A DNA stretch of 64,000 bases, from contig JALUUW010000003.1 of assembly GCA_027021195.1 (NCBI GenBank), positions 4,843 to 68,842 of the forward strand, in the 5' to 3' direction. This document shows positions 1 through 7,672 of this stretch, piece after piece. The DNA comes from Candidatus Pacearchaeota archaeon (GTDB lineage: Archaea > Nanobdellota > Nanobdellia > Pacearchaeales > GW2011-AR1). Numbering within the stretch: position 1 is the first letter of the stretch; each line of letters starts with the position of its first letter. Both the position numbers and the translations under genes were made by a program. The notes below the pieces were generated by a model, which was not told where the DNA came from, did not search any database, and was given only the letters and a program-made list of their open reading frames with translations.

Positions 1-587
1 CTGAAACTATTGAACCTGGGAAGATAGAAATCGCTATCTTTAATGATTTGAAAGAGTTTACAAAAAAATATGAATTTGAAAATAATAAATCTCTTCCTTT
101 TTTTGTTGTAGGATTTGCTGGAAAGAACGGCAGAATTTTTATCTTGGATAAAAAACTTTTTCCAAAACAAGGACACAGAGAAGAAGAATTTGAAAGAGTC
201 GTTGTTCATGAATTATGCCATGTATTTATCAGGAGAATGCTACACCCCAAACATACTTTCATTTGGATAGAGGAAGGGCTATGTGAATTTTTGTCTTTTG
301 GAGATTATCCTTTAAAAATAAAAAAAATAGTGGATTTTAGAGAGATTGAAACTTCTGAAGGATGGAGAAAGCATAATGCCTATCAACAAGCAAAAGGTTT
401 TTTTAAATATTTATCTAAAAATTATGGGGATAAAAAAATAGTGGAATTTATTAAAAAAATTAAAGTTACTTCTGAGAGAAAGGCATTTAAAGAGGTGTTT
501 GGAAAAGAAATAAATGAAATCCAAGAAAAGTTCTTTAACACCTTGAAAAATGAAAAAACTCTATCATCCGGGAATTCCTTGCAATGA
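1..587 (+). CDS. HExxH metallopeptidase-like protein (5' partial)
   Basis: The frame is open from nt 3 to the window edge, and the track start at 48 is a TTG. Motifs VVHELCHVF and downstream IEEGLCE fit a gluzincin-like HExxH+E. Overlaps the next gene by 38 nt. Confidence 0.5.
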   Translation, partial: ETIEPGKIEIAIFNDLKEFTKKYEFENNKSLPFFVVGFAGKNGRIFILDKKLFPKQGHREEEFERVVVHELCHVFIRRMLHPKHTFIWIEEGLCEFLSFGDYPLKIKKIVDFREIETSEGWRKHNAYQQAKGFFKYLSKNYGDKKIVEFIKKIKVTSERKAFKEVFGKEINEIQEKFFNTLKNEKTLSSGNSLQ

Positions 588-1716
588 GAATATAGTTCAA
601 AAAGATTTAGAAAAGAGTCTTATTAATTTTAGAAATAAGCGTATAGAGATTGTTGAATGTAATGAAGGGTTTGGAGTTTTTGATAAAGACTGGTTTTGGG
701 CAACAAAAGAAGAGTTAGATTCTCTTAAGAAATGCCCAGATATCTCAATAAGGTATTTTTTAGATAATGAAAAGTTCAATCATGAAGGATGGTTTTTTTA
801 TAACCCAATAGAACTTGGTATAGAATTAACAAGAGAATGTAATCAGCTGTGTATTCATTGTTGGAATGAATCTTCTTCAAGGGATACTAAAATGCCTTTG
901 AAGAAGGCAAAAGAAATTATTCAGGAATTTAGAAAAGGAGGAGGACAGAAAATAAAGATATCTGGTGGAGAACCATTATCATATTCTTCTTTAGATGAAT
1001 TTTTATTTTTTTCAAAAGAAGTTGGGATAAAAAAAGTAGATATGACATCTAATGGAGTGTTAATGAATAGGGAAAAAGCAAAATTTTTATCTACTCATCT
1101 AACAAATATATGTATAAGTATTCATGGTTCTAAATCAGATATACATGACGATATAACTTACAATAAAGGAAGTTTTGTAAAATCTATTAAAGCAATAGAG
1201 CATCTTCAGGAAGAAGGGTTAAACCCCATAATTAATTATACTGTTATGCAGAAAAACAAAAAGGACATTGCAGACATGATTGAATTAGGGAAAATTCTTA
1301 ATGTTAACGGGATAAAATTCAGTTGTTTAAAAAAGATTGGAAGAGCGAGAAATTTAGAGGTAATTTCTAAAGAAGAGGTAAATACATTAAGAAATTTAAT
1401 ATATACTAAATCGAAAGAGCTTGGAATTGAGTTAGAGAAGAGTGAATTGTATCCTGCAGGATATGTTCAAGGCATTAGTCAATCAAAATTTTATGGATGT
1501 AATGGATTAAGAACCCAACTATATATCTCTTCAGAAGGCAACGTTTACCCATGTAGTTTAATAAATGAAAGTATTGGAAACATTTACCAAGATTCTTTAT
1601 TTAATTTATGGAGAAGTAAAAAAGCTCAGGAATTTAGAAGATTGGATAATTGTATTAAAAATGATTGCAAAATAATTAGGGATTGTGGGAGAAAGTGTAG
1701 GGCAAGTTTGAAGTAA
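550..1716 (+). CDS. radical SAM / SPASM-domain enzyme (peptide-maturase-like)
   Basis: CNQLCIHC (CX3CX2C), SGGEPL, and a C-terminal Cys cluster: GCNG..YISSEGNVYPCS..CIKNDCKIIRDCGRKC. There is a ~95-aa N-terminal extension before the cluster motif. Confidence 0.85.
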   Translation: MKKLYHPGIPCNENIVQKDLEKSLINFRNKRIEIVECNEGFGVFDKDWFWATKEELDSLKKCPDISIRYFLDNEKFNHEGWFFYNPIELGIELTRECNQLCIHCWNESSSRDTKMPLKKAKEIIQEFRKGGGQKIKISGGEPLSYSSLDEFLFFSKEVGIKKVDMTSNGVLMNREKAKFLSTHLTNICISIHGSKSDIHDDITYNKGSFVKSIKAIEHLQEEGLNPIINYTVMQKNKKDIADMIELGKILNVNGIKFSCLKKIGRARNLEVISKEEVNTLRNLIYTKSKELGIELEKSELYPAGYVQGISQSKFYGCNGLRTQLYISSEGNVYPCSLINESIGNIYQDSLFNLWRSKKAQEFRRLDNCIKNDCKIIRDCGRKCRASLK

Positions 1717-1793
1717 CGAGGGAGAGTTAAATATAAAATATATTTTGACCATGGAAGAAAAATAGGGTATGGGAAGCTAAAAAAAGAGCAGAT

Positions 1794-2372
1794 ATGGAAG
1801 GTTATGAGAATATAAAATTTGTTAAAGCTGATATCAATTCCTTACCCTTTGACTCAGAAACGTTTGACGTTGTCATAGTAGGAAATGTCTTCTCTTTGAT
1901 AGAAAATAAAAAAATTGCATTAAAGGAATGCATGCGTGTTTCTAAAAAAAATGGATTTATTATTGTAATCCCTATGTATTACATAAAAGAACCTTCGAAG
2001 GAACTTATAAAGAGAGTTTCCAAAGCCCTTAAAGTCGACATTGCTCCTATGTATCGATCAGATTGGATAAATTTCTTCTCAATATCTGGATTAGAAATAT
2101 ATTGGTCAAAAGATTTCAAATTTGACCACATAGACAATAAAAAAATAATTTCCTTTTGTGAGGAGATTTTTAATAAAGAACATTTACGAAACTTGACTAA
2201 ATCGGCATATGAGAAACTATTTGAAGTTTATCAGAAATTTATGTTTCTATTTCGCGATAATTTATCTCATATGGGATATATCATACTTATTTTATCTAAA
2301 AGAAAGTTGTGGGAAGATCCAGAACTCTTTACATCCAGAGAAAATATCTCCCTTGGAAACTTTAGTCAATAG
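1794..2372 (+). CDS. class I SAM-methyltransferase, N-terminally truncated (motif I missing); possible pseudogene
   Basis: Starts at the post-motif-I region (KFVKADINSLPFDSETFDVVIVGNVF, KNGFIIV). No GxGxG motif is present. An in-frame TAA lies 5 codons upstream, and only 77 nt separate it from the previous gene. Confidence 0.5.
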   Translation: MEGYENIKFVKADINSLPFDSETFDVVIVGNVFSLIENKKIALKECMRVSKKNGFIIVIPMYYIKEPSKELIKRVSKALKVDIAPMYRSDWINFFSISGLEIYWSKDFKFDHIDNKKIISFCEEIFNKEHLRNLTKSAYEKLFEVYQKFMFLFRDNLSHMGYIILILSKRKLWEDPELFTSRENISLGNFSQ

Positions 2373-2390
2373 AATAAAATATGGTAATTC

Positions 2391-3416
2391 TTATTTGATT
2401 CCTTTTTCTAAGAACTCAAAATTGTTTGTTTCTGAGTCAATTACAACTTTTGTACCAATAGGGATAGTTAGCTGAGGATCGGTATGACCTATATCCACTC
2501 CAAACAAAATGGGAAAATTATATTCTTTTGTTCTCTCCAGTAACTTCTTTTTTAGCATTTCTATATCTTCTTCATTATATCTAAAAGGTCTGCCAAAAAT
2601 TAGCCCTCTGATTTGTTTAAATACTCCTAAAATGTTTAACTGCTCCAGATACCAGTCAACATAAGGAAGGGGTTCCCCTTCATCAAATGTCTGACCTTCT
2701 GGCAATTCTAAAAATAGAATCTTATCTGTATGATCTGGCCAGTATTTTGTACCTGGCAAATGGACTATTGATGTGAGACATCCTCCTATAATTTTACCTT
2801 CTGCTTTTCCTCCTCGCAACCATTCAAAACCTTTATTTTCTTTCAATTTTCTTGGCCTTGTAAGATCCAACTTTTTACTCCAATCTAAGAATTCATCAGT
2901 CCAGCTTTCAGAAGGAGATACTTTTCCTATGGGTTCATCTGATGCTACTGCCTTATTAAAATAATCTAAAGTATATTTAAGAGGATGAGGGTATTCTCCA
3001 AATTGAGTTATAATACATGGTCCATAAAAAGTTATAAGATTGGATTGCGTATGGAGTGCATAGTGCAAGATAGAGATATCTGAATAACCACAGAATATCT
3101 TTGGATTTTGTTTTATTTTCTCAAAATCTAAATAATTTAGAGTATGGGTTGCTACTGTTCCTCCAATTAAAGATATAATTGCTTTTATATCTTTGTCAAG
3201 AAAAGCGTCCATTATGTCTTTAGCCCTTTCTTCTGCAGGAGCAGATTCCCATCCGTTAACTTTTCTTGCTGTAGGAAACTCTTTAATTTTATAACCCTCA
3301 GATTTTAGAAATTTAACCGCATTGTCAAGTCTATGGGGAAAGTTCAATCCAGACGATGGAGCGATTATTGCTATTGTATCTCCTTTTCCAAGTCGTGGAG
3401 GCTTAATTAGTTCCAT
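2391..3416 (-). CDS. S66 family LD-carboxypeptidase / MccF-like serine peptidase
   Basis: GDTIAIIAPSSG, GYSDISIL (nucleophile Ser context) and DIGHTDP (His). Size is 341 aa. Confidence 0.8.
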   Translation of the reverse strand: MELIKPPRLGKGDTIAIIAPSSGLNFPHRLDNAVKFLKSEGYKIKEFPTARKVNGWESAPAEERAKDIMDAFLDKDIKAIISLIGGTVATHTLNYLDFEKIKQNPKIFCGYSDISILHYALHTQSNLITFYGPCIITQFGEYPHPLKYTLDYFNKAVASDEPIGKVSPSESWTDEFLDWSKKLDLTRPRKLKENKGFEWLRGGKAEGKIIGGCLTSIVHLPGTKYWPDHTDKILFLELPEGQTFDEGEPLPYVDWYLEQLNILGVFKQIRGLIFGRPFRYNEEDIEMLKKKLLERTKEYNFPILFGVDIGHTDPQLTIPIGTKVVIDSETNNFEFLEKGIK

Positions 3417-3623
3417 TAATTTTTAACAGAGGTAAAACTTTAAATATTTATTGGATTCCCTCTAACAACCCCTTCATTCAAAATAAAAGAAAAAGCCATT
3501 ACAGATATGACTATGATGCTAATTTGAATTAAGGACAAGCAAACCTTCGGCCCTTTTTTTGGGATGGGTTAATGAAAACAATGGCATTTATTCTTGTTTA
3601 TGGGTATTTACTAAGAATAATGG

Positions 3624-3839
3624 CTAAGGAAAACAGCCTAATTTTTCATGTGCTTTTATTAAAAAATCCCTGAAATCTTTTTTGCTTTCCCATACAGGAT
3701 TTAACTTGTTCCTGATTAAATCAAAATCTATCTTCTTTAATCTTCTAATCTCTGCTAATTCACTTATCATTCTTTCGTACTTTTCTTTTGATATTTTTGC
3801 CATTTCCATAATAGCTAAATGGGGCTGATATTTATACAA
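3624..3839 (-). CDS. hypothetical small protein (71 aa; TTG start, alternative ATG at 3809)
   Basis: Last ORF of the minus-strand rSAM operon, 23 nt after the HExxH gene. No recognisable motif. Confidence 0.4.
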   Translation of the reverse strand: MYKYQPHLAIMEMAKISKEKYERMISELAEIRRLKKIDFDLIRNKLNPVWESKKDFRDFLIKAHEKLGCFP

Positions 3840-3862
3840 TTTTCTAAATAAAACAGGGAATC

Positions 3863-4531
3863 TTATATCTTAATTCTTTTAACATATTCTATACATTCAT
3901 TAATTAGAGGAATTATATCTGGATTATGCTTCCACGTTTCCATTACTCTCTTTCTTAATTCTTTATGTTCAGCATAGCCTTTATCTTCAACAAACCATAG
4001 ATCTCTACACTCTAAATTTAAGATTGCAGTTAAAGACTCATTAACATACTCTATTTCTCTAAACCCTAGCTGATTTCTAATTAAAGGCAAATGTGTTTTT
4101 TCCATCTGTAAATGCATTAATTCATGTCCACATGTTCTTAAATTTTGCAACAGAGGTCTTCGAATTGAGACCATGAAAGAATCCTCCTCCACATTATAAG
4201 GACATCTTCCAGCAGTTGTAATATATGCATTAAATTCATTTGAATATATTTTGTGTTTGGTAATTTTTTCTAACCTTTCAAAAAACCTGTTATTTATTTT
4301 TCCCCAAGAGTTCTGCAATGTTTCTAAAAAGATGTCTAAATGGCCTGAAGAATATAATGGTTGAATATACTGTTCAATCTCTTCCCTACATTCTTCAAAT
4401 TTTCTATTTTTCCACCTCTGTAGGACTGACCCTCTTTCTAATTCATTCTCCCATGGATGCTCGTAGTTGCTAGTTTCCCATATATTCCAAAGGTCTTTTT
4501 CCTTATCAAACTTAAAAATTACTTTTGACAT
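3863..4531 (-). CDS. HExxH-motif protein (putative Zn peptidase)
   Basis: CGHELMHLQ motif. Lies 16 nt downstream of the methyltransferase gene. Confidence 0.5.
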   Translation of the reverse strand: MSKVIFKFDKEKDLWNIWETSNYEHPWENELERGSVLQRWKNRKFEECREEIEQYIQPLYSSGHLDIFLETLQNSWGKINNRFFERLEKITKHKIYSNEFNAYITTAGRCPYNVEEDSFMVSIRRPLLQNLRTCGHELMHLQMEKTHLPLIRNQLGFREIEYVNESLTAILNLECRDLWFVEDKGYAEHKELRKRVMETWKHNPDIIPLINECIEYVKRIKI

Positions 4532-4547
4532 ATTCTTTTTTTGAAGG

Positions 4548-5072
4548 TTAAGCTTTTTGTTTATTTTTTAATAGTAATAAAATAACATTATGTTTATGGG
4601 GGGGCAAATTATCATGCTCTTCAATGGGGGTCTCATACATTCCTTCCTTCATTATTTCCCAATCAGAATATAGGTTTTTTAATTGTTTTAATGAAGGATA
4701 AAACCTATTTTGTGCATTTCTTGCCATAGGGTCTTTATCTGAAAAACAGATGATAAAAGTATGTCCTTGCTCAGAGGTATGTGTTTGTATCTTTTTTAAA
4801 ATATTTTGTGCAGTTACCTTATCTAAAAAATGCAAAACTAACGAAGCAATTATTAAGTCATATTTCTCTTTGAATTCAAAATTTGTTATATCTTCATTAA
4901 AGAATTTAAAATTTTTCTGGGAGATTTCCATAGGTCTTTTATCTACTCCAAGAACTTTTACGCCTTGTTTGGCAAATCTGAGAGATTTATGCCCTTTCCC
5001 ACAACCCAGATCCAAAACATTTTGAGGCTGTAGTTCTTTAAGATATTCTTTGACTTTATCCCTTATTATCAT
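4548..5072 (-). CDS. class I SAM-dependent methyltransferase
   Basis: VLDLGCGKGHKSLRFAKQGVKVLGVD (motif I plus acidic loop) and DLIIASLVLHFL. Confidence 0.8.
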   Translation of the reverse strand: MIIRDKVKEYLKELQPQNVLDLGCGKGHKSLRFAKQGVKVLGVDKRPMEISQKNFKFFNEDITNFEFKEKYDLIIASLVLHFLDKVTAQNILKKIQTHTSEQGHTFIICFSDKDPMARNAQNRFYPSLKQLKNLYSDWEIMKEGMYETPIEEHDNLPPHKHNVILLLLKNKQKA

Positions 5073-5108
5073 TTATTAATTCTTTAAGTTTATTTTATTT
5101 AATTCTTT

Positions 5109-6170
5109 CTAATCTTGTGAGCTTCCCTGCACATATTCTTTAAAACACATAGGGTCTTTGGCCATATAATCTCCTGTTACTGCATAAGCAATTGCCCTAC
5201 ATCCTCTGCAGTGCACCACTTTATCACAAAGAGTATTCTCCCTCATTTTATTCAAATCTCTTAAATTTTGCATTACCTTGTTCTCTAAAATTAAATTACC
5301 TATTCCGTCACTTATGCGACCTATTTTAATAGGAAGTCTTCTACAAGGATAAACAGTTCCGTCCGATAATATTGAAAGCATTCTAAATCCTGCAGAACAC
5401 CCCCAAAGATATTTATTTTGCTCCTTTGCTGTTTTTATTACTTCGTTTTCTTTTTCCAATATTTGCCAAAGAACATCAGATTGAAGGACATTAATCTTAT
5501 CTCTATATTTTTCATTTAGTCTTTCAGTTTCTTTAACCATCTCGTAGATTTCTTTAGCATTAATAAATTCAGGATCTTTAATTCCTAAGTTTGAATCTGG
5601 ATTATAAGTTTTAAAACCCACTTTTTTAGCTCCTGCTAAAATTGCATTTTGGATAACATCCTCAAACTCTTTTTTATTAGACTGCATAAGAGTCATGGCT
5701 ACTGTAACATTTAAGCCTTCTTTTGAAGCATTTCTTATCCCTTCAATTGCCATATCATATGCAAAATCTTTTCTCCTAATTTTATTATGTGTGCGCTTAG
5801 ATCCATCAAGAGAAACTTGTATTGCTTCAACTTTTTGCTCCAAAAGTTCTCTAGCTTTTTTAGGAGTAATTAATGTGCCATTAGTTAACAAATTTGTTAT
5901 AACTTTTTTCTTACAAGCATATTCTAAAATTTCAAGATGATCTTCCCTCATTAAAGGATCTCCTCCCGAAATTGCGATTCTGGGTATCATCTCCCACCTT
6001 TTTGCTGTCTCTGCTAAATCATCTATCATTGATTTTACTTCATTTAAACTCATTAAATTATCATCTTGGATGTGGTCTACATTCCCTTCGTTGTTATGAT
6101 AACAATGGGAGCATTTAAGATTACAATCATTTGTGGAATCCCCTTGAATATATAAGTGTCTTTTAGCCAT
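5109..6170 (-). CDS. radical SAM / SPASM-domain enzyme (peptide-maturase-like)
   Basis: CNLKCSHC (CX3CX2C) at residues ~16-23, SGGDPL, and a C-terminal WGCSAG..LSDGTVYPCRR..CDKVVHCRGCRA..DPMC (SPASM-type auxiliary cluster cysteines). Confidence 0.85.
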   Translation of the reverse strand: MAKRHLYIQGDSTNDCNLKCSHCYHNNEGNVDHIQDDNLMSLNEVKSMIDDLAETAKRWEMIPRIAISGGDPLMREDHLEILEYACKKKVITNLLTNGTLITPKKARELLEQKVEAIQVSLDGSKRTHNKIRRKDFAYDMAIEGIRNASKEGLNVTVAMTLMQSNKKEFEDVIQNAILAGAKKVGFKTYNPDSNLGIKDPEFINAKEIYEMVKETERLNEKYRDKINVLQSDVLWQILEKENEVIKTAKEQNKYLWGCSAGFRMLSILSDGTVYPCRRLPIKIGRISDGIGNLILENKVMQNLRDLNKMRENTLCDKVVHCRGCRAIAYAVTGDYMAKDPMCFKEYVQGSSQD

Positions 6171-6212
6171 TACAAATTAAGAGCAGTTTTTCTAAATCTA
6201 TTTGGAATTTTT

Positions 6213-6338
6213 TTATTCTAAAGAATAGACATCATCTGCGTAACATGCATCTGGACCACAAGCATCGCAAGGGTCACAGTGATAACGATCTTTCTCTTGA
6301 GACGCTTTATTAGTTATATAAGAACTAATATCTAACAT
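6213..6338 (-). CDS. 41-aa Cys/Asp-rich peptide, candidate RiPP precursor (not in ORF track)
   Basis: Hand translation gives MLDISSYITNKASQEKDRYHCDPCDACGPDACYADDVYSLE*. It has an ATG start and a TAA stop, lies 42 nt upstream of the rSAM gene on the same strand, and has a TATA-like box ~80 nt upstream. Confidence 0.5.
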   Translation of the reverse strand: MLDISSYITNKASQEKDRYHCDPCDACGPDACYADDVYSLE

Positions 6339-6416
6339 ACCCTTAAGAAAAGCTTGTTCCTCAGCAGTTCTCTCCAGTTTATTTGTTTTTGCTATAAAAA
6401 GCCAACAACCTTAATA

Positions 6417-6424
6417 TATTTAAA
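6417..6424 (-). promoter_or_regulatory. TATA-box-like element (TTTAAATA on minus strand) upstream of the peptide/rSAM operon
   Basis: The plus strand reads tatttaaa, which matches the archaeal TATA consensus TTTAWATA. It sits 79 nt upstream of the peptide ATG. Confidence 0.35.
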
Positions 6425-6583
6425 TTTTATTGTAATGGATTTATTTTGTAGTGCCTAAGTAACTTAAAAAGTTATTTATTTGCAGATTTTTCAGAAGAAA
6501 CAACCTCAAACTCAGTTGAGCCTATATAATTTCCATCTACATTAAACACTGTTTTGCAAATCCCTAATTGTAATGATTTGTCA

Positions 6584-6615
6584 AAACAAAATCCTCTTCA
6601 TTTACATTTCTTGAA
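6584..6615. repeat. 32-nt exact copy of a segment of the 1247-aa gene (partner 11601..11632)
   Basis: aaacaaaatcctcttcatttacatttcttgaa is identical at both sites in the same orientation. The flanks are unrelated. Confidence 0.9.
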
Positions 6616-6644
6616 AACAAATTGTTTCATTTAATCCATATACC

Positions 6645-6661
6645 CCGCAGCTCTGCTGCGG
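6645..6661 (-). terminator. GC-rich hairpin (CCGCAGC-tct-GCTGCGG), terminator-like
   Basis: A 7-bp perfect GC-rich stem in AT-rich intergenic DNA, downstream of the 6802..7386 gene. On the minus strand it is followed by a T-rich tract (ttgtttt). Confidence 0.3.
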
Positions 6662-6801
6662 TTGGGAGCTTCACTTCAGAACGAGATGGGGCAGAAGTCA
6701 TGACTCCAGAATTAGCGGATGTGTCTTAACAGGAAGTCTTTCTCCTCTGGAAGAATACGTTCTTCTCTCAAAAACCCTTCCCTATCAGCTATTCTAAGGG
6801 T

Positions 6802-7386
6802 TCACTCAGATGTTCTGCTGATTTCATTCAGATATTCTGCTAATTGCCTCATATCATCAGGCTTCCCCTCTAATTCAGAATAATATTTATTGTCCATTTC
6901 AAAGTAAAACCTATTCACGAAATCAATAGTCTCTTTGTATTTGCTTATGCCTTTTTTCTCAACTAATTTATTAAAGCAGTCAATATATCTCATTAGGGCT
7001 TCAGTCAACTCCCTTGTTTCCTCGCTCTCCTTAAGCAGGGCTTTATCCATATTAGAATATGCTTTATCCAAAAATTCAATTACTTCTTTATAATTCTCAA
7101 CCCCTTTTTTTTCCACCAATTTGTAAAAAGCACACGCATATTCTGTTAAAGCCATAGTCAGGTCCCTGATTTCCGGGTCTTTGATTCTATGTATCTCTTT
7201 CTGGAATCTATCCATATCATCAAGTTCTTTTTCTATTGTCTCTTGGAAAGTTTGGTTTTTTATTTTTGACCGAAAAATGATTCCGTGTTCCACTAGACCT
7301 TTATGGAATCCTCTTAATCCTTTCAATATCTTTTCATTTAATTTAATTTTTTCTGCTTCTATCATTTTAATCTTACATAGTTCCAC
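6802..7386 (-). CDS. hypothetical protein with internal ~45-aa repeats (GTG start; alternative ATG at 7365)
   Basis: Two clear repeats: RDLTMALTEYACAFYKLVEKKGVENYKEVIEFLDKAY and RELTEALMRYIDCFNKLVEKKGISKYKETIDFVNRFY. Confidence 0.5.
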   Translation of the reverse strand: MELCKIKMIEAEKIKLNEKILKGLRGFHKGLVEHGIIFRSKIKNQTFQETIEKELDDMDRFQKEIHRIKDPEIRDLTMALTEYACAFYKLVEKKGVENYKEVIEFLDKAYSNMDKALLKESEETRELTEALMRYIDCFNKLVEKKGISKYKETIDFVNRFYFEMDNKYYSELEGKPDDMRQLAEYLNEISRTSE

Positions 7387-7438
7387 CTACCCTTATGCAT
7401 TAATAAAAAAGACAAAAAAAGAAATTATCTTTCAGGTC

Positions 7439-7564
7439 TTATTTCTTTTCAGATCCTTCAGTCATTTCTAAAACCTTCTCATTTGGCATAGAGGTTTCTA
7501 CAAGACCCAAATGGAAATTCTCAAGACCTTCCAACATTTCCCTGTTAAATCCACATAGGGGCAT
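7439..7564 (-). CDS. 41-aa small ORF with strong SD (not in ORF track)
   Basis: GGAGGAAAAGAAA precedes the ATG. Translation is MPLCGFNREMLEGLENFHLGLVETSMPNEKVLEMTEGSEKK*. Lies upstream of and co-directional with the 194-aa gene. Confidence 0.35.
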   Translation of the reverse strand: MPLCGFNREMLEGLENFHLGLVETSMPNEKVLEMTEGSEKK

Positions 7565-7672
7565 TTTCTTTTCCTCCTAATTTAGTTAACTATAATATAT
7601 AATTACTTTATATAAACTATTCTATTGGATAATTTTACAAAAAAGAAATATTTATATATTGGTACTTATTTT

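What the first reader, a model, noticed from the sequence alone, without database searches (positions are those of the whole stretch)
2391..6424. Compact RiPP-like operon in a DPANN-type archaeon: Cys/Asp-rich peptide, rSAM/SPASM, methyltransferase, HExxH protein, small ORF, MccF-like peptidase
Seen in sequence, on the minus strand in order:
- TATA-like TTTAAATA (6424-6417).
- A 41-aa ORF (6338-6213).
- A 42-nt gap, then a radical SAM gene with CNLKCSHC and a full C-terminal SPASM-type Cys set (6170-5109).
- A 36-nt gap, then a class I methyltransferase (5072-4548).
- A 16-nt gap, then a HELMH protein (4531-3863).
- A 23-nt gap, then a 71-aa ORF (3839-3624).
- 207 nt further on, an S66 peptidase gene (3416-2391).

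Established knowledge: a SPASM rSAM enzyme encoded next to a short Cys-rich peptide is the hallmark of sactipeptide, ranthipeptide and SCIFF-type maturation. A methyltransferase, a protease and an immunity-type peptidase are common accessory functions in such clusters.

Inference: this is a ribosomal-peptide natural-product locus. Archaeal RiPPs are barely described, and I know of none from DPANN-type genomes, so both the chemistry and the biology (for example symbiont-host interaction) would be new.
Basis: partly seen in the sequence, partly recalled or inferred. Interest (0 to 1): 0.85.

Follow-up and report, generated by a model that had tools for sequence, protein, structure and literature searches.

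The report
Conserved DPANN cysteine-rich peptide maturation operon
This is a real four-gene operon (cysteine-rich precursor peptide, radical SAM/SPASM enzyme, methyltransferase, zinc peptidase) shared by about 30 tiny DPANN archaea in the species-level genome scan and in no curated family, but here the peptide has lost its normal start codon.

Summary

**Conserved unit.** It is smaller than claimed: TATA box, precursor peptide, rSAM/SPASM, TehB-like methyltransferase and HExxH protein (window 3863-6424, minus strand).
- 26-27 of 29 DPANN loci have a same-strand Cys-rich short frame just upstream of the rSAM. About 0.02 is expected by chance.
- The methyltransferase is adjacent in about 28 of 30 loci. 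The HExxH protein occurs only in the window's clade.
- rSAM clades match the peptide core types exactly, so enzyme and peptide co-diversify.
- The HExxH protein models confidently as a gluzincin zinc peptidase, a likely leader peptidase.

**Not part of it.** The 71-aa ORF is never found in relatives. The S66 peptidase is found in 1 of 30.

**Caveats.**
- The 41-aa ORF is the 3' part of an ancestral ~60-codon precursor. In this genome the start position reads ATA instead of ATG, in three assemblies, so the peptide may be truncated or not made.
- The SPASM domain has 6 conserved Cys, not the canonical 7.
- No curated family threshold is met (ACGX, PapB, SbtM, AhbD/NirJ).

**Context.** A second Cys-rich peptide/rSAM cluster lies convergently at and beyond the window's left edge.

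**Verdict.** This is a new variant of rSAM-modified Cys-rich RiPPs. The chemistry and the biological role are unknown.

The parts
6417..6424 (-). TATA-box promoter element (TTTAAATA) of the precursor gene
   Evidence: Present in the sequence. Equivalent boxes (TTTAAATA, CTTAAATAG, TTTATATAG) end about 21-23 nt before the precursor ATG in 12 of the 13 relatives inspected; L026 has no clear box. This spacing suggests a leaderless or near-leaderless mRNA (inference).
6213..6395 (-). Precursor peptide frame: leader (KLERTAEEQAFLKGM...) plus Cys/Asp-rich core (YHCDPCDACGPDACYADDVYSLE). ATA at 6395-6393 occupies the ancestral start. The first ATG is at 6338 and gives the 41-aa ORF 6338-6213.
   Evidence: Frame read. 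The 62-aa relative P0241 aligns end to end with it at 64% identity. It aligns with 24 other precursors. The sequence is identical in three assemblies. No Pfam or NCBIfam hit.
5109..6170 (-). Radical SAM/SPASM peptide maturase (353 aa). CxxxCxxC at residues 16-23, no N-terminal RRE-type extension, 6 conserved C-terminal Cys.
   Evidence: PF04055 at 87.5 bits and PF13186 at 29.3 bits, both above their cutoffs. Best NCBIfam hit is ACGX at 171.8 against a cutoff of 400. More than 120 homologues at 50-77% identity, named Pacearchaeota or Nanoarchaeota where a source names them. Best PDB sequence hits are CteB and SkfB. Best fold hits are SkfB, SuiB, PqqE and anSME.
4548..5072 (-). TehB-like class I SAM methyltransferase (174 aa)
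   Evidence: PF03848 TehB at 71.7 bits. A homologue is adjacent to the rSAM in about 28 of 30 DPANN loci: directly downstream in most, divergently upstream in L005 and L030.
3863..4531 (-). DPANN-specific HExxH protein with a gluzincin zinc-peptidase fold, the candidate leader peptidase (222 aa)
3624..3839 (-). 71-aa ORF. Not a conserved component and possibly not a gene.
   Evidence: No family hit. No tblastn hit in any of 80 loci. Absent from the closest relative's operon.
2391..3416 (-). Peptidase S66 (LD-carboxypeptidase/MccF family) gene. A neighbour, not a conserved member of the operon.
   Evidence: PF02016 plus PF17676. Near the rSAM in only L021. Absent in the closest relative. It lies between two convergent clusters.
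1..2372 (+). 3' part of a second, convergent Cys-rich peptide cluster: HExxH_B (window 1-587, whose start lies 94 nt left of the window), rSAM/SPASM_B (550-1716) and an N-terminally truncated methyltransferase MT_B (1794-2372). Its candidate precursor (59 aa) and a third rSAM/SPASM (435 aa) lie just left of the window.
   Evidence: The precursor on L081 14634-14813(-) ends ...EYSCDAVCDNCHCATF.

Best explanation
Window 3863-6424 (minus strand) is a four-gene operon that matures a ribosomally made, leader-guided, cysteine-rich peptide. It is an rSAM-dependent RiPP pathway.

**Shown**
- A TATA box sits about 22 nt before the ancestral start of a ~60-codon precursor.
- The precursor has a conserved leader motif, roughly L-T/S-x-x-E-x-x-[FYL]-L-x-S-[MI]. 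A Tyr-preceded core follows and always contains CxxCxxC.
- The next genes are a SPASM radical SAM enzyme, a TehB-like SAM methyltransferase and a gluzincin-fold HExxH protein.
- Peptide, rSAM and methyltransferase travel together across about 30 DPANN genomes, and the rSAM tree mirrors the peptide core types.

**Inferred mechanism**
1. The rSAM binds the leader. It has no RRE domain, so the binding surface is unknown.
2. It uses 5'-deoxyadenosyl radical chemistry to cross-link core cysteines to carbon atoms of neighbouring residues. These would be sactionine- or ranthionine-type thioethers.
3. One auxiliary cluster may have an open coordination site that takes a substrate Cys, as in CteB. This idea rests on the missing SPASM Cys.
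4. The methyltransferase then methylates the modified peptide, at a remaining thiol or at the conserved acidic/amide C-terminal tail.
5. The gluzincin removes the leader.

**In this genome**
The ancestral start codon reads ATA. Either a 41-aa peptide lacking the leader motif is made from the internal ATG, or the precursor is silent.

The S66 peptidase and the 71-aa ORF are bystanders.
For: - ORFs and motifs are present as listed.
- Domains: rSAM plus SPASM, and TehB-like methyltransferase.
- The rSAM family is large and, where named, DPANN.
- There are 30 DPANN loci at 41-70% identity.
- The methyltransferase is adjacent in about 28 of 30.
- An upstream precursor with a leader motif and a Cys-rich core occurs in 26-27 of 29 loci, against 0.022 expected by chance.
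- Independent gene calls for 54-79 aa precursors exist.
- The NJ tree of the rSAMs is fully concordant with four peptide core types.
- The closest relative has exactly peptide-rSAM-methyltransferase-HExxH and nothing else.
- The bacterial sister group at about 32% identity is also paired with a short precursor, here with in-frame TGA codons and a hairpin, in 38 of about 48 loci.
- The best sequence and fold matches among solved structures are peptide maturases: CteB, SkfB and SuiB.
- HExxH_A has a gluzincin fold and the HExxH...E ligand set.
- The TATA box sits at a conserved distance from the start.
- Accessory genes vary by clade (APH-like, DUF3419), as is typical of RiPP tailoring.
Against: - No curated family threshold is met: ACGX 171.8/400, NirJ2 170/500, AhbD 153/500, SbtM 106/350, PapB 95/340. 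The chemistry therefore cannot be transferred by homology.
- No precursor hits any peptide model.
- The rSAM lacks an RRE domain, and none is encoded nearby.
- One canonical SPASM Cys is missing.
- No transporter or immunity gene is conserved, so a secreted antibiotic role is unsupported.
- In this genome the leader motif has no canonical start codon.
- CxxCxxC is also a metal or Fe-S binding motif, so the peptide could act as a ligand rather than a cross-linked product.
- There is no expression or mass-spectrometry evidence.
Confidence: 0.68

Rival explanations
1. Same operon, different chemistry and role. The rSAM converts cysteines into heterocycles or other non-thioether products, as in SbtM-type thio(seleno)oxazole formation. 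Alternatively, the matured CxxCxxC peptide works inside the cell as a metal-binding, redox or cofactor-like molecule (in the manner of SCIFF, mycofactocin or PQQ) rather than as a secreted natural product.
For: - The wider clade includes SbtM. rSAM_A scores 105.6 bits, and the Pacearchaeota paralogue L031 scores 215 bits to SbtM and 281 bits to ACGX.
- The sister group has precursors that appear to contain selenocysteine. SbtM acts on such peptides (PMC11002830).
- No exporter or immunity gene is conserved.
- The CxxCxxC motif is universal.
- The rSAM is strongly conserved, at 50-77% identity.
Against: - The SbtM score is far below its cutoff of 350, and SbtM's ~200-aa N-terminal region is absent.
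- The DPANN precursors have no in-frame TGA.
- A dedicated peptidase and variable tailoring genes are more typical of RiPP natural products.
- The system is found in only about 30 of the top 80 loci, from a scan of 185,579 species genomes. That patchiness argues against a housekeeping cofactor.
Confidence: 0.2
2. In this particular genome the cluster is decaying and non-functional. The precursor lost its start codon (ATG to ATA) and no mature product is made. The neighbouring cluster B also carries a truncated methyltransferase.
For: - ATA sits exactly where 12 relatives have ATG, about 22 nt after the conserved TATA box.
- The ATA is identical in three independent assemblies.
- The internal ATG would remove the conserved leader motif.
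- MT_B lacks SAM-binding motif I, and no remnant lies upstream.
- Two other relatives have disrupted precursors. L003 and L022 carry a frameshift and L004 an in-frame TAG.
Against: - The rSAM, methyltransferase and HExxH ORFs are intact and well conserved.
- The precursor frame is otherwise open and 64% identical to P0241.
- Initiation at ATA, or at the internal Met, cannot be excluded.
- L006 also lacks an upstream ATG although it has the leader motif.
Confidence: 0.35
3. The rSAM is a cofactor or heme-type enzyme (AhbD/NirJ-like), or another non-peptide radical SAM enzyme. The small upstream ORF is then a coincidental or unrelated small protein.
For: NirJ2 (170 bits) and AhbD (153 bits) score nearly as high as ACGX. 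Some source annotations call homologues 'AdoMet-dependent heme synthase'.
Against: - All these scores are a third or less of the family cutoffs.
- The upstream Cys-rich ORF is conserved in 26-27 of 29 loci and co-diversifies with the enzyme.
- No heme or siroheme genes are nearby.
- The outgroup is also peptide-linked.
Confidence: 0.03
4. The HExxH protein is not a leader peptidase. It is instead an alpha-ketoglutarate/Fe(II)-dependent HExxH oxygenase that hydroxylates or oxidatively cleaves the peptide, as ChlH, BpmH and PflC do in bacterial RiPP clusters.
Against: - The invariant Glu 24 residues after HExxH fits the gluzincin third zinc ligand.
- The curated HExxH-modification family gives no hit even at E = 10.
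- An O2-dependent enzyme is an odd partner for an O2-sensitive rSAM in mostly anaerobic DPANN archaea (inference).
Confidence: 0.12

Closest known systems
ACGX system (NCBIfam TIGR04340 rSAM/SPASM with TIGR04341 ACGX-repeat peptide). It is defined only bioinformatically.
   Same: It is the top-scoring curated model for the rSAM (171.8 bits, full-length alignment 11-345). Like the window enzyme, it is a short SPASM enzyme with the CxxxCxxC near the N-terminus (its 341-position model aligns from position 8). The window core contains one 'ACGP'.
   Different: The score is far below the cutoff of 400. No precursor matches any peptide model. The core has CxxCxxC units rather than ACGX repeats. An obligatory TehB-like methyltransferase and a gluzincin partner are not part of the ACGX definition as I recall it (own knowledge).
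Ranthipeptides and SCIFF (PapB/freyrasin; CteB/SCIFF)
   Same: A SPASM rSAM sits next to a short Cys-rich precursor. CteB is the best PDB sequence hit (E 6e-14). The PapB family is likewise short, with no N-terminal extension (model alignment). The Cys/Asp-rich type-1 core recalls Cys-Asp thioethers (own knowledge of freyrasin and QhpC).
   Different: PapB scores 94.8 against a cutoff of 340. CteB's N-terminal ~100-aa domain is absent, since the alignment starts at CteB residue 104. The leader motif is different. One SPASM Cys is missing. Thioether formation is untested.
SbtM thio(seleno)oxazole RiPPs (TIGR04082)
   Same: It belongs to the same broad rSAM clade. The bacterial sister group of the DPANN enzymes has precursors with in-frame TGA plus a hairpin, as described for SbtM clusters (PMC11002830).
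   Different: The score is 105.6 against a cutoff of 350. SbtM's ~200-aa N-terminal region is absent. The DPANN precursors have no Sec codon or SECIS-like hairpin.
Sactipeptide maturases (AlbA, SkfB, StsB)
   Same: SkfB is the top fold match (Foldseek E 1e-16) and the second-best PDB sequence hit. Multiple Cys donors lie in a short core.
   Different: All NCBIfam scores are far below cutoff. There is no N-terminal RRE, and the precursor architecture differs.
Gluzincin metallopeptidases (clan MA: M1 aminopeptidases, thermolysin), for the HExxH protein
   Different: It is a stand-alone 222-aa domain with no sequence-level family hit. All source-given names are DPANN. Its substrate and cleavage site are unknown.

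Membership tests
SPASM-domain radical SAM enzymes (PF04055 + PF13186) | CxxxCxxC radical SAM cluster motif, with the Radical_SAM domain above its gathering score | tested here: met
   C16-x3-C20-x2-C23, invariant across 18 homologues. PF04055 scores 87.5 bits against 29.5.
SPASM-domain radical SAM enzymes (PF04055 + PF13186) | SPASM domain above its gathering score | tested here: met
   PF13186 scores 29.3 bits against 21.5.
SPASM-domain radical SAM enzymes (PF04055 + PF13186) | Canonical seven-Cys motif CX9-15GX4C...CX2CX5CX3C...C (recalled from Haft and Basu 2011) | tested here: not met
   Only six conserved Cys are present. C258-x12-G-x4-C276 is intact. The second block is C315-x5-C321-x2-C324, followed by C342. 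V318 replaces the Cys seen in the bacterial outgroup's CxxCx5CxxC.
ACGX system (TIGR04340/TIGR04341) | rSAM scores at or above the curated cutoff of 400 bits | tested here: not met
   171.8 bits.
ACGX system (TIGR04340/TIGR04341) | Adjacent peptide matches the ACGX-repeat peptide model | tested here: not met
   No NCBIfam hit at E up to 10 for the window peptide or for 7 relatives.
PapB-type ranthipeptide maturases (NF047865) | Score at or above the 340-bit cutoff | tested here: not met
   94.8 bits.
Ranthipeptides and sactipeptides (chemical classes) | Cys sulfur linked to the beta/gamma carbon (ranthionine) or alpha carbon (sactionine) of an acceptor residue | not testable with these tools
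   This needs MS/MS and NMR of the modified peptide.
SCIFF/CteB system | Maturase with an N-terminal peptide-binding domain, and a SCIFF-type precursor | tested here: not met
   The alignment to CteB starts at CteB residue 104 and query residue 13. No SCIFF peptide model hit.
SbtM thio(seleno)oxazole system (TIGR04082) | Score at or above 350 bits, and a precursor with a Sec codon plus SECIS | tested here: not met
   105.6 bits, matching only model positions 202-516. The window precursor has no in-frame TGA.
AhbD/NirJ heme-type radical SAM enzymes | Score at or above 500 bits, and a tetrapyrrole-pathway gene context | tested here: not met
   NirJ2 scores 170.2 and AhbD 153.5. No heme genes are present in the neighbourhoods.
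RiPP biosynthetic cluster (generic definition) | Short precursor with a conserved leader and a variable core, encoded next to its modifying enzyme, conserved across genomes | tested here: met
RiPP biosynthetic cluster (generic definition) | RiPP recognition element (PqqD-like RRE), fused or stand-alone | tested here: not met
   The rSAM has no N-terminal extension. No PqqD-like Pfam or NCBIfam hit was found in any operon protein. RRE-independent recognition is known, so this does not exclude a RiPP.
Gluzincin zinc metallopeptidases (clan MA), for HExxH_A | HExxH plus a downstream Glu ligand, on a thermolysin-like fold | tested here: met
Alpha-KG-dependent HExxH oxygenases (IPR026337) | Sequence membership in the curated HExxH-modification family | tested here: not met
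MccF-type immunity peptidase as a cluster member (S66) | S66 domains present | tested here: met
   PF02016 scores 122.6 bits and PF17676 101.9 bits. The LdcA equivalog scores 96.7 against 378, so that threshold is not met.
MccF-type immunity peptidase as a cluster member (S66) | Conserved linkage with the biosynthetic genes | tested here: not met
   Adjacent only in L021 among 30 DPANN loci. Absent in the closest relative.

The most novel reading that the evidence does not exclude
This may be a previously undescribed RiPP class that, in these searches, occurs only in DPANN archaea (Pacearchaeota, Woesearchaeota, Nanoarchaeota). Its features are:
- its own rSAM/SPASM clade, with no RRE and with one SPASM Cys replaced;
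- an obligatory TehB-like methyltransferase;
- a dedicated stand-alone gluzincin;
- leaderless precursor mRNAs;
- four co-evolving CxxCxxC core types.

The product would carry chemistry not seen in sactipeptides or ranthipeptides, for example methylated Cys-derived cross-links or a metal-binding scaffold. It might act in the episymbiont-host relationship. The enzyme clade's bacterial sister group would then make related selenocysteine-containing peptides.
Probability: 0.3. Interest if true: 0.8.

Novelty: new variant of a known kind. Interest (0 to 1): 0.58.

Why it matters
DPANN archaea have tiny genomes and reportedly very few biosynthetic clusters (bioRxiv 10.64898/2026.04.17.719132). No DPANN RiPP has been characterised in the papers I could search. 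A compact four-gene module retained in about 30 such genomes, and co-evolving with its peptide, implies a function worth its cost.

The module is a tractable target for heterologous reconstitution. It has four small genes, many natural precursor variants and a defined leader motif. If it is active, it would give the first chemistry for a DPANN peptide product. It would also provide a new SPASM enzyme clade that recognises its substrate without an RRE, and a new stand-alone leader peptidase.

If the product turns out to be an ordinary thioether peptide, the finding is a useful but incremental addition to the ranthipeptide/sactipeptide family.

Tried and rejected
- **Peptide family models.** NCBIfam at E up to 10 on the window peptide, its extended frame and 7 relatives gave nothing.
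- **Exact look-up of the window rSAM.** Not on record under that exact sequence. The parent contig was reached through the HExxH protein instead.
- **Leader homology between the DPANN and bacterial (Sec-type) precursors.** hhalign aligned the same motif (LTxxExxFL against ALxKEAAFW), but with P = 0.05 and probability 1%. This is not significant and I make no claim from it.
- **A shared methyltransferase theme.** Some outgroup loci have a PEMT/ICMT-like membrane methyltransferase after the rSAM, but only 6 of about 48 do. I do not use it as evidence.
- **S66 as an immunity gene, and the 71-aa ORF as an RRE or component.** Rejected because neither is conserved.
- **Additional precursor copies in the window.** None found.
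- **Source organism name.** Cluster look-up gave no names. The DPANN assignment rests on the named relatives and on archaeal chromosomal genes in the window.
- **Literature.** Searches for ACGX, for DPANN with RiPP, and for archaeal ranthipeptides found only survey-level counts.
- **afdb50 fold library.** Unavailable.

Full report
**1. Observation**

- TTTAAATA at 6424-6417;
- a 41-aa ATG ORF at 6338-6213;
- after 42 nt, a 353-aa radical SAM gene (6170-5109) with DCNLKCSHCYH;
- after 36 nt, a 174-aa methyltransferase (5072-4548);
- after 16 nt, a 222-aa protein with HELMH (4531-3863);
- after 23 nt, a 71-aa TTG ORF (3839-3624);
- after 207 nt, a 341-aa S66 peptidase (3416-2391).

Pfam confirms Radical_SAM (87.5 bits) and SPASM (29.3 bits, cutoff 21.5). 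It also confirms TehB-like and other class I methyltransferase domains, and both S66 domains. The peptide, the HExxH protein and the 71-aa ORF hit nothing.

One detail is wrong. The SPASM region has six conserved cysteines (C258, C276, C315, C321, C324, C342), not the canonical seven. The near-invariant V318 sits where the bacterial relatives have CxxCx5CxxC.

**2. Is the peptide-enzyme pair real?**

The rSAM belongs to a large family. More than 120 proteins share 50-77% identity with it, and the few named ones are Pacearchaeota or Nanoarchaeota. A scan of one genome per species returned 30 DPANN loci at 41-70% identity. Identity then drops sharply to about 32% in Nitrospirota and Deltaproteobacteria.

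In the DPANN loci:
- The methyltransferase homologue is adjacent in about 28 of 30. It lies directly downstream in most and divergently upstream in L005 and L030.
- The HExxH homologue follows in eight loci of the window's clade.
- S66 appears once (L021).
- The 71-aa ORF never appears.

Reading the 500 nt upstream of each rSAM shows a 52-86 aa ORF with a Cys-rich C-terminus in nearly every locus. A stop-to-stop frame with four closely spaced Cys ends within 200 nt upstream, on the same strand, in 26 of 29 loci. L004 has one too, but the regular expression missed it. The background rate is 0.022 per such position.

The aligned precursors share a leader motif, roughly L-[TS]-x-x-E-x-x-[FYL]-L-x-S-[MI]. 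Most have a Tyr shortly before the first Cys. All have a core containing CxxCxxC. There are four core types:
- type 1, CDPCDACGPDAC;
- type 2, YTCVSGCSxCVSCGGND;
- type 3, CDSCNSCGSGDCNSCC;
- type 4, CNTCKQCPGCGCMCNND.

A neighbour-joining tree of the rSAMs groups them exactly by core type, so enzyme and peptide co-diversify.

An HMMER search of 1.84 billion representative proteins with the window's extended frame found 12 independently called small proteins of 54-79 aa from the same family.

The closest relative (rSAM P0002 at 77% identity, precursor P0241 at 64%; four contigs) has exactly peptide, rSAM, methyltransferase and HExxH, followed by an unrelated convergent gene. The conserved unit is therefore these four genes. 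The S66 gene and the 71-aa ORF are not part of it.

**3. The precursor in this genome**

The frame containing the 41-aa ORF is open from 6410. It reads ...IAKTNKLERTAEEQAFLKGM-LDISS..., so the conserved leader motif lies upstream of the ATG at 6338. No in-frame ATG, GTG or TTG precedes it.

P0241 (MEKVNQLELTVNEQAFLGSM...) aligns from its second residue with this frame. That places the window's ATA (6395-6393) where relatives have ATG.

The sequence is identical in the window and in two independent assemblies (ENA and Logan contigs), so this is not a read error.

In 12 of the 13 relatives inspected, a TTTAAATA-like box ends about 21-23 nt before the ATG. The window has the same box at the same distance from the ATA. 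It also suggests leaderless mRNAs, for which a 5'-terminal AUG normally matters (established knowledge, applied by inference).

The window's precursor is therefore one of three things:
- initiated abnormally at the ATA;
- made as a 41-aa peptide lacking the leader motif;
- silent.

Other relatives show disruptions too. L003 and L022 have a homopolymer frameshift, and L004 has an in-frame TAG. P0254 shows the intact version of the L003/L022 precursor.

**4. What the enzymes are**

*The rSAM.* It meets no curated family threshold:

| Model | Score (bits) | Cutoff (bits) |
|---|---|---|
| ACGX | 171.8 | 400 |
| NirJ2 | 170.2 | 500 |
| AhbD | 153.5 | 500 |
| SbtM | 105.6 | 350 |
| PapB | 94.8 | 340 |

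It has no N-terminal extension, hence no fused RRE. The best solved-structure sequence hits are the thioether-forming peptide maturases CteB (E 6e-14) and SkfB. The AF2 model (pLDDT 84.7) best matches SkfB, SuiB, BlsE, PqqE, TigE and anSME.

The bacterial sister group also has a conserved upstream peptide, MKK..L.KEAAFW..LKK...NPGKVC[HR]K. It is followed by TGA-AAG-GGN-TGA-AAG and a hairpin, which looks like a selenocysteine-containing precursor. It occurs in 38 of about 48 loci. This resembles what is described for SbtM clusters (PMC11002830).

The whole clade is therefore peptide-directed.

I therefore favour a zinc leader peptidase. The oxygenase alternative known from bacterial RiPPs (PMC12636437) stays as a minor rival.

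**5. Mechanism (inferred)**

1. A near-leaderless transcript starts after the TATA box.
2. The precursor is translated.
3. The rSAM recognises the leader on an unknown surface.
4. 5'-deoxyadenosyl radical chemistry cross-links core Cys to carbons of neighbouring residues. The missing SPASM Cys may leave an auxiliary-cluster site open for a substrate thiolate, as in CteB (own knowledge).
5. The TehB-like methyltransferase adds a methyl group, either to a thiol or to the conserved acidic/amide C-terminal tail.
6. The gluzincin removes the leader.

The gene content, its conservation and the folds are shown. Every chemical step is inference.

No exporter or immunity gene recurs. A secreted antibiotic or a symbiont-host role is therefore unsupported, and an intracellular metal-binding or redox role is a live alternative.

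**6. Surroundings**

The parent contig shows a second, convergent cluster that straddles the window's left edge. In order it contains:
- a 435-aa rSAM/SPASM;
- a 59-aa ORF ending EYSCDAVCDNCHCATF;
- HExxH_B (BSP/Peptidase_MA_2-like, window 1-587);
- rSAM/SPASM_B (550-1716, with a ~90-aa N-terminal extension);
- a methyltransferase lacking its N-terminal SAM motif (1794-2372).

The S66 gene sits between the two clusters. GC content is 30.8% over 1-6500, against 36.8% for the whole window. The rest of the window is ordinary archaeal chromosome: two CDC48 genes, aminoacyl-tRNA synthetases, a topoisomerase and an Lrp/AsnC regulator.

**7. Novelty**

An antiSMASH survey of archaea counts 221 BGCs in Nanoarchaeota. 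It predicts ranthipeptide- and sactipeptide-type clusters across DPANN (PMC12144867). Another atlas reports that DPANN encode very few BGCs. I found no description of this family, its leader motif, its methyltransferase and peptidase partners or its product. No curated model covers its peptide or its peptidase.

I classify it as a new variant of rSAM-modified Cys-rich RiPPs. Interest is moderate to high. It is reduced by the lack of any chemical or expression evidence, and by the start-codon lesion in this particular genome.

Noticed in passing
window 1-2372 (+) and L081 13945-16117 (-), beyond the window's left edge: A second, convergent RiPP-like cluster. In order: rSAM/SPASM (435 aa), a 59-aa Cys/Asp-rich ORF (...EYSCDAVCDNCHCATF), the HExxH_B peptidase-like protein, rSAM/SPASM_B (388 aa, with a ~90-aa N-terminal extension) and the methyltransferase MT_B. 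It has two rSAMs for one small peptide.
   Followed up: partly
window 6393-6395 (-): ATA occupies the position of the precursor's ancestral ATG start, about 22 nt after the conserved TATA box. It is identical in three independent assemblies. This is either a possible non-canonical or leaderless initiation, or a start-codon loss.
   Followed up: partly
window 1794-2372 (+): MT_B matches only the C-terminal half of class I methyltransferase models (Pfam profile positions 44-95). No motif-I remnant lies in any upstream frame. Its homologue in L029 is 280 aa, so MT_B is a probable truncated gene.
   Followed up: partly
L032-L080 (for example L041 7765-7900, L035 7732-7870): Nitrospirota and Deltaproteobacteria relatives of the rSAM (about 32% identity) have a 34-aa upstream ORF ending ...NPGKVC[HR]K. 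It is followed by TGA-AAG-GGN-TGA-AAG-AG and a GC-rich hairpin. This looks like a precursor ending CHK-U-K-G-U-K-S with two selenocysteines. The rSAM meets no NCBIfam threshold. A PEMT/ICMT-like membrane methyltransferase follows in 6 loci.
   Followed up: partly
rSAM_A residue 318 (window ~5217-5219): The DPANN clade has a near-invariant Val where the bacterial sister group has the second Cys of the SPASM CxxCx5CxxC block. This leaves six Cys for two auxiliary clusters, so one cluster may have an open coordination site.
   Followed up: partly
L003 1790-1950, L022 7751-7910, L004 1276-1509: In these relatives the precursor is interrupted. L003 and L022 have a frameshift in G/A homopolymers, and L004 has an in-frame TAG between leader and core. 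These could be assembly errors, pseudogenes or recoding. P0254 shows an intact version of the L003/L022 precursor.
   Followed up: partly
L009-L014, L016, L020 (about 1.6-3.3 kb downstream of the rSAM start): The clade with YTCVSGC-type precursors lacks the HExxH protein. Instead it carries a ~245-aa protein with a weak APH phosphotransferase match (HGDLxxxN...YYFDFE). Four of these loci also carry a 292-aa DUF3419 protein. These look like clade-specific tailoring genes.
   Followed up: partly
window 8690-10177 (-) and 11026-14769 (-): Two large Cys-rich proteins of 495 and 1247 aa have no Pfam hit for the one scanned. Homologues lie close to the rSAM cluster in L006 and L023, with three copies in each.
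   Followed up: no
window 1-6500: GC content is 30.8%, against 36.8% for the whole window and 39.2% for 6500-20000. The two-cluster island is compositionally distinct.
   Followed up: no
window 55104-57398 (+) and 57805-59988 (+): Two CDC48-type double-AAA ATPase genes in tandem, separated by a 127-aa ORF.
   Followed up: no
window 2391-3416 (-): An S66 (LD-carboxypeptidase/MccF family) peptidase in an archaeon that presumably lacks murein. It scores far below the LdcA equivalog cutoff (96.7 against 378), so its substrate is unclear.
   Followed up: partly
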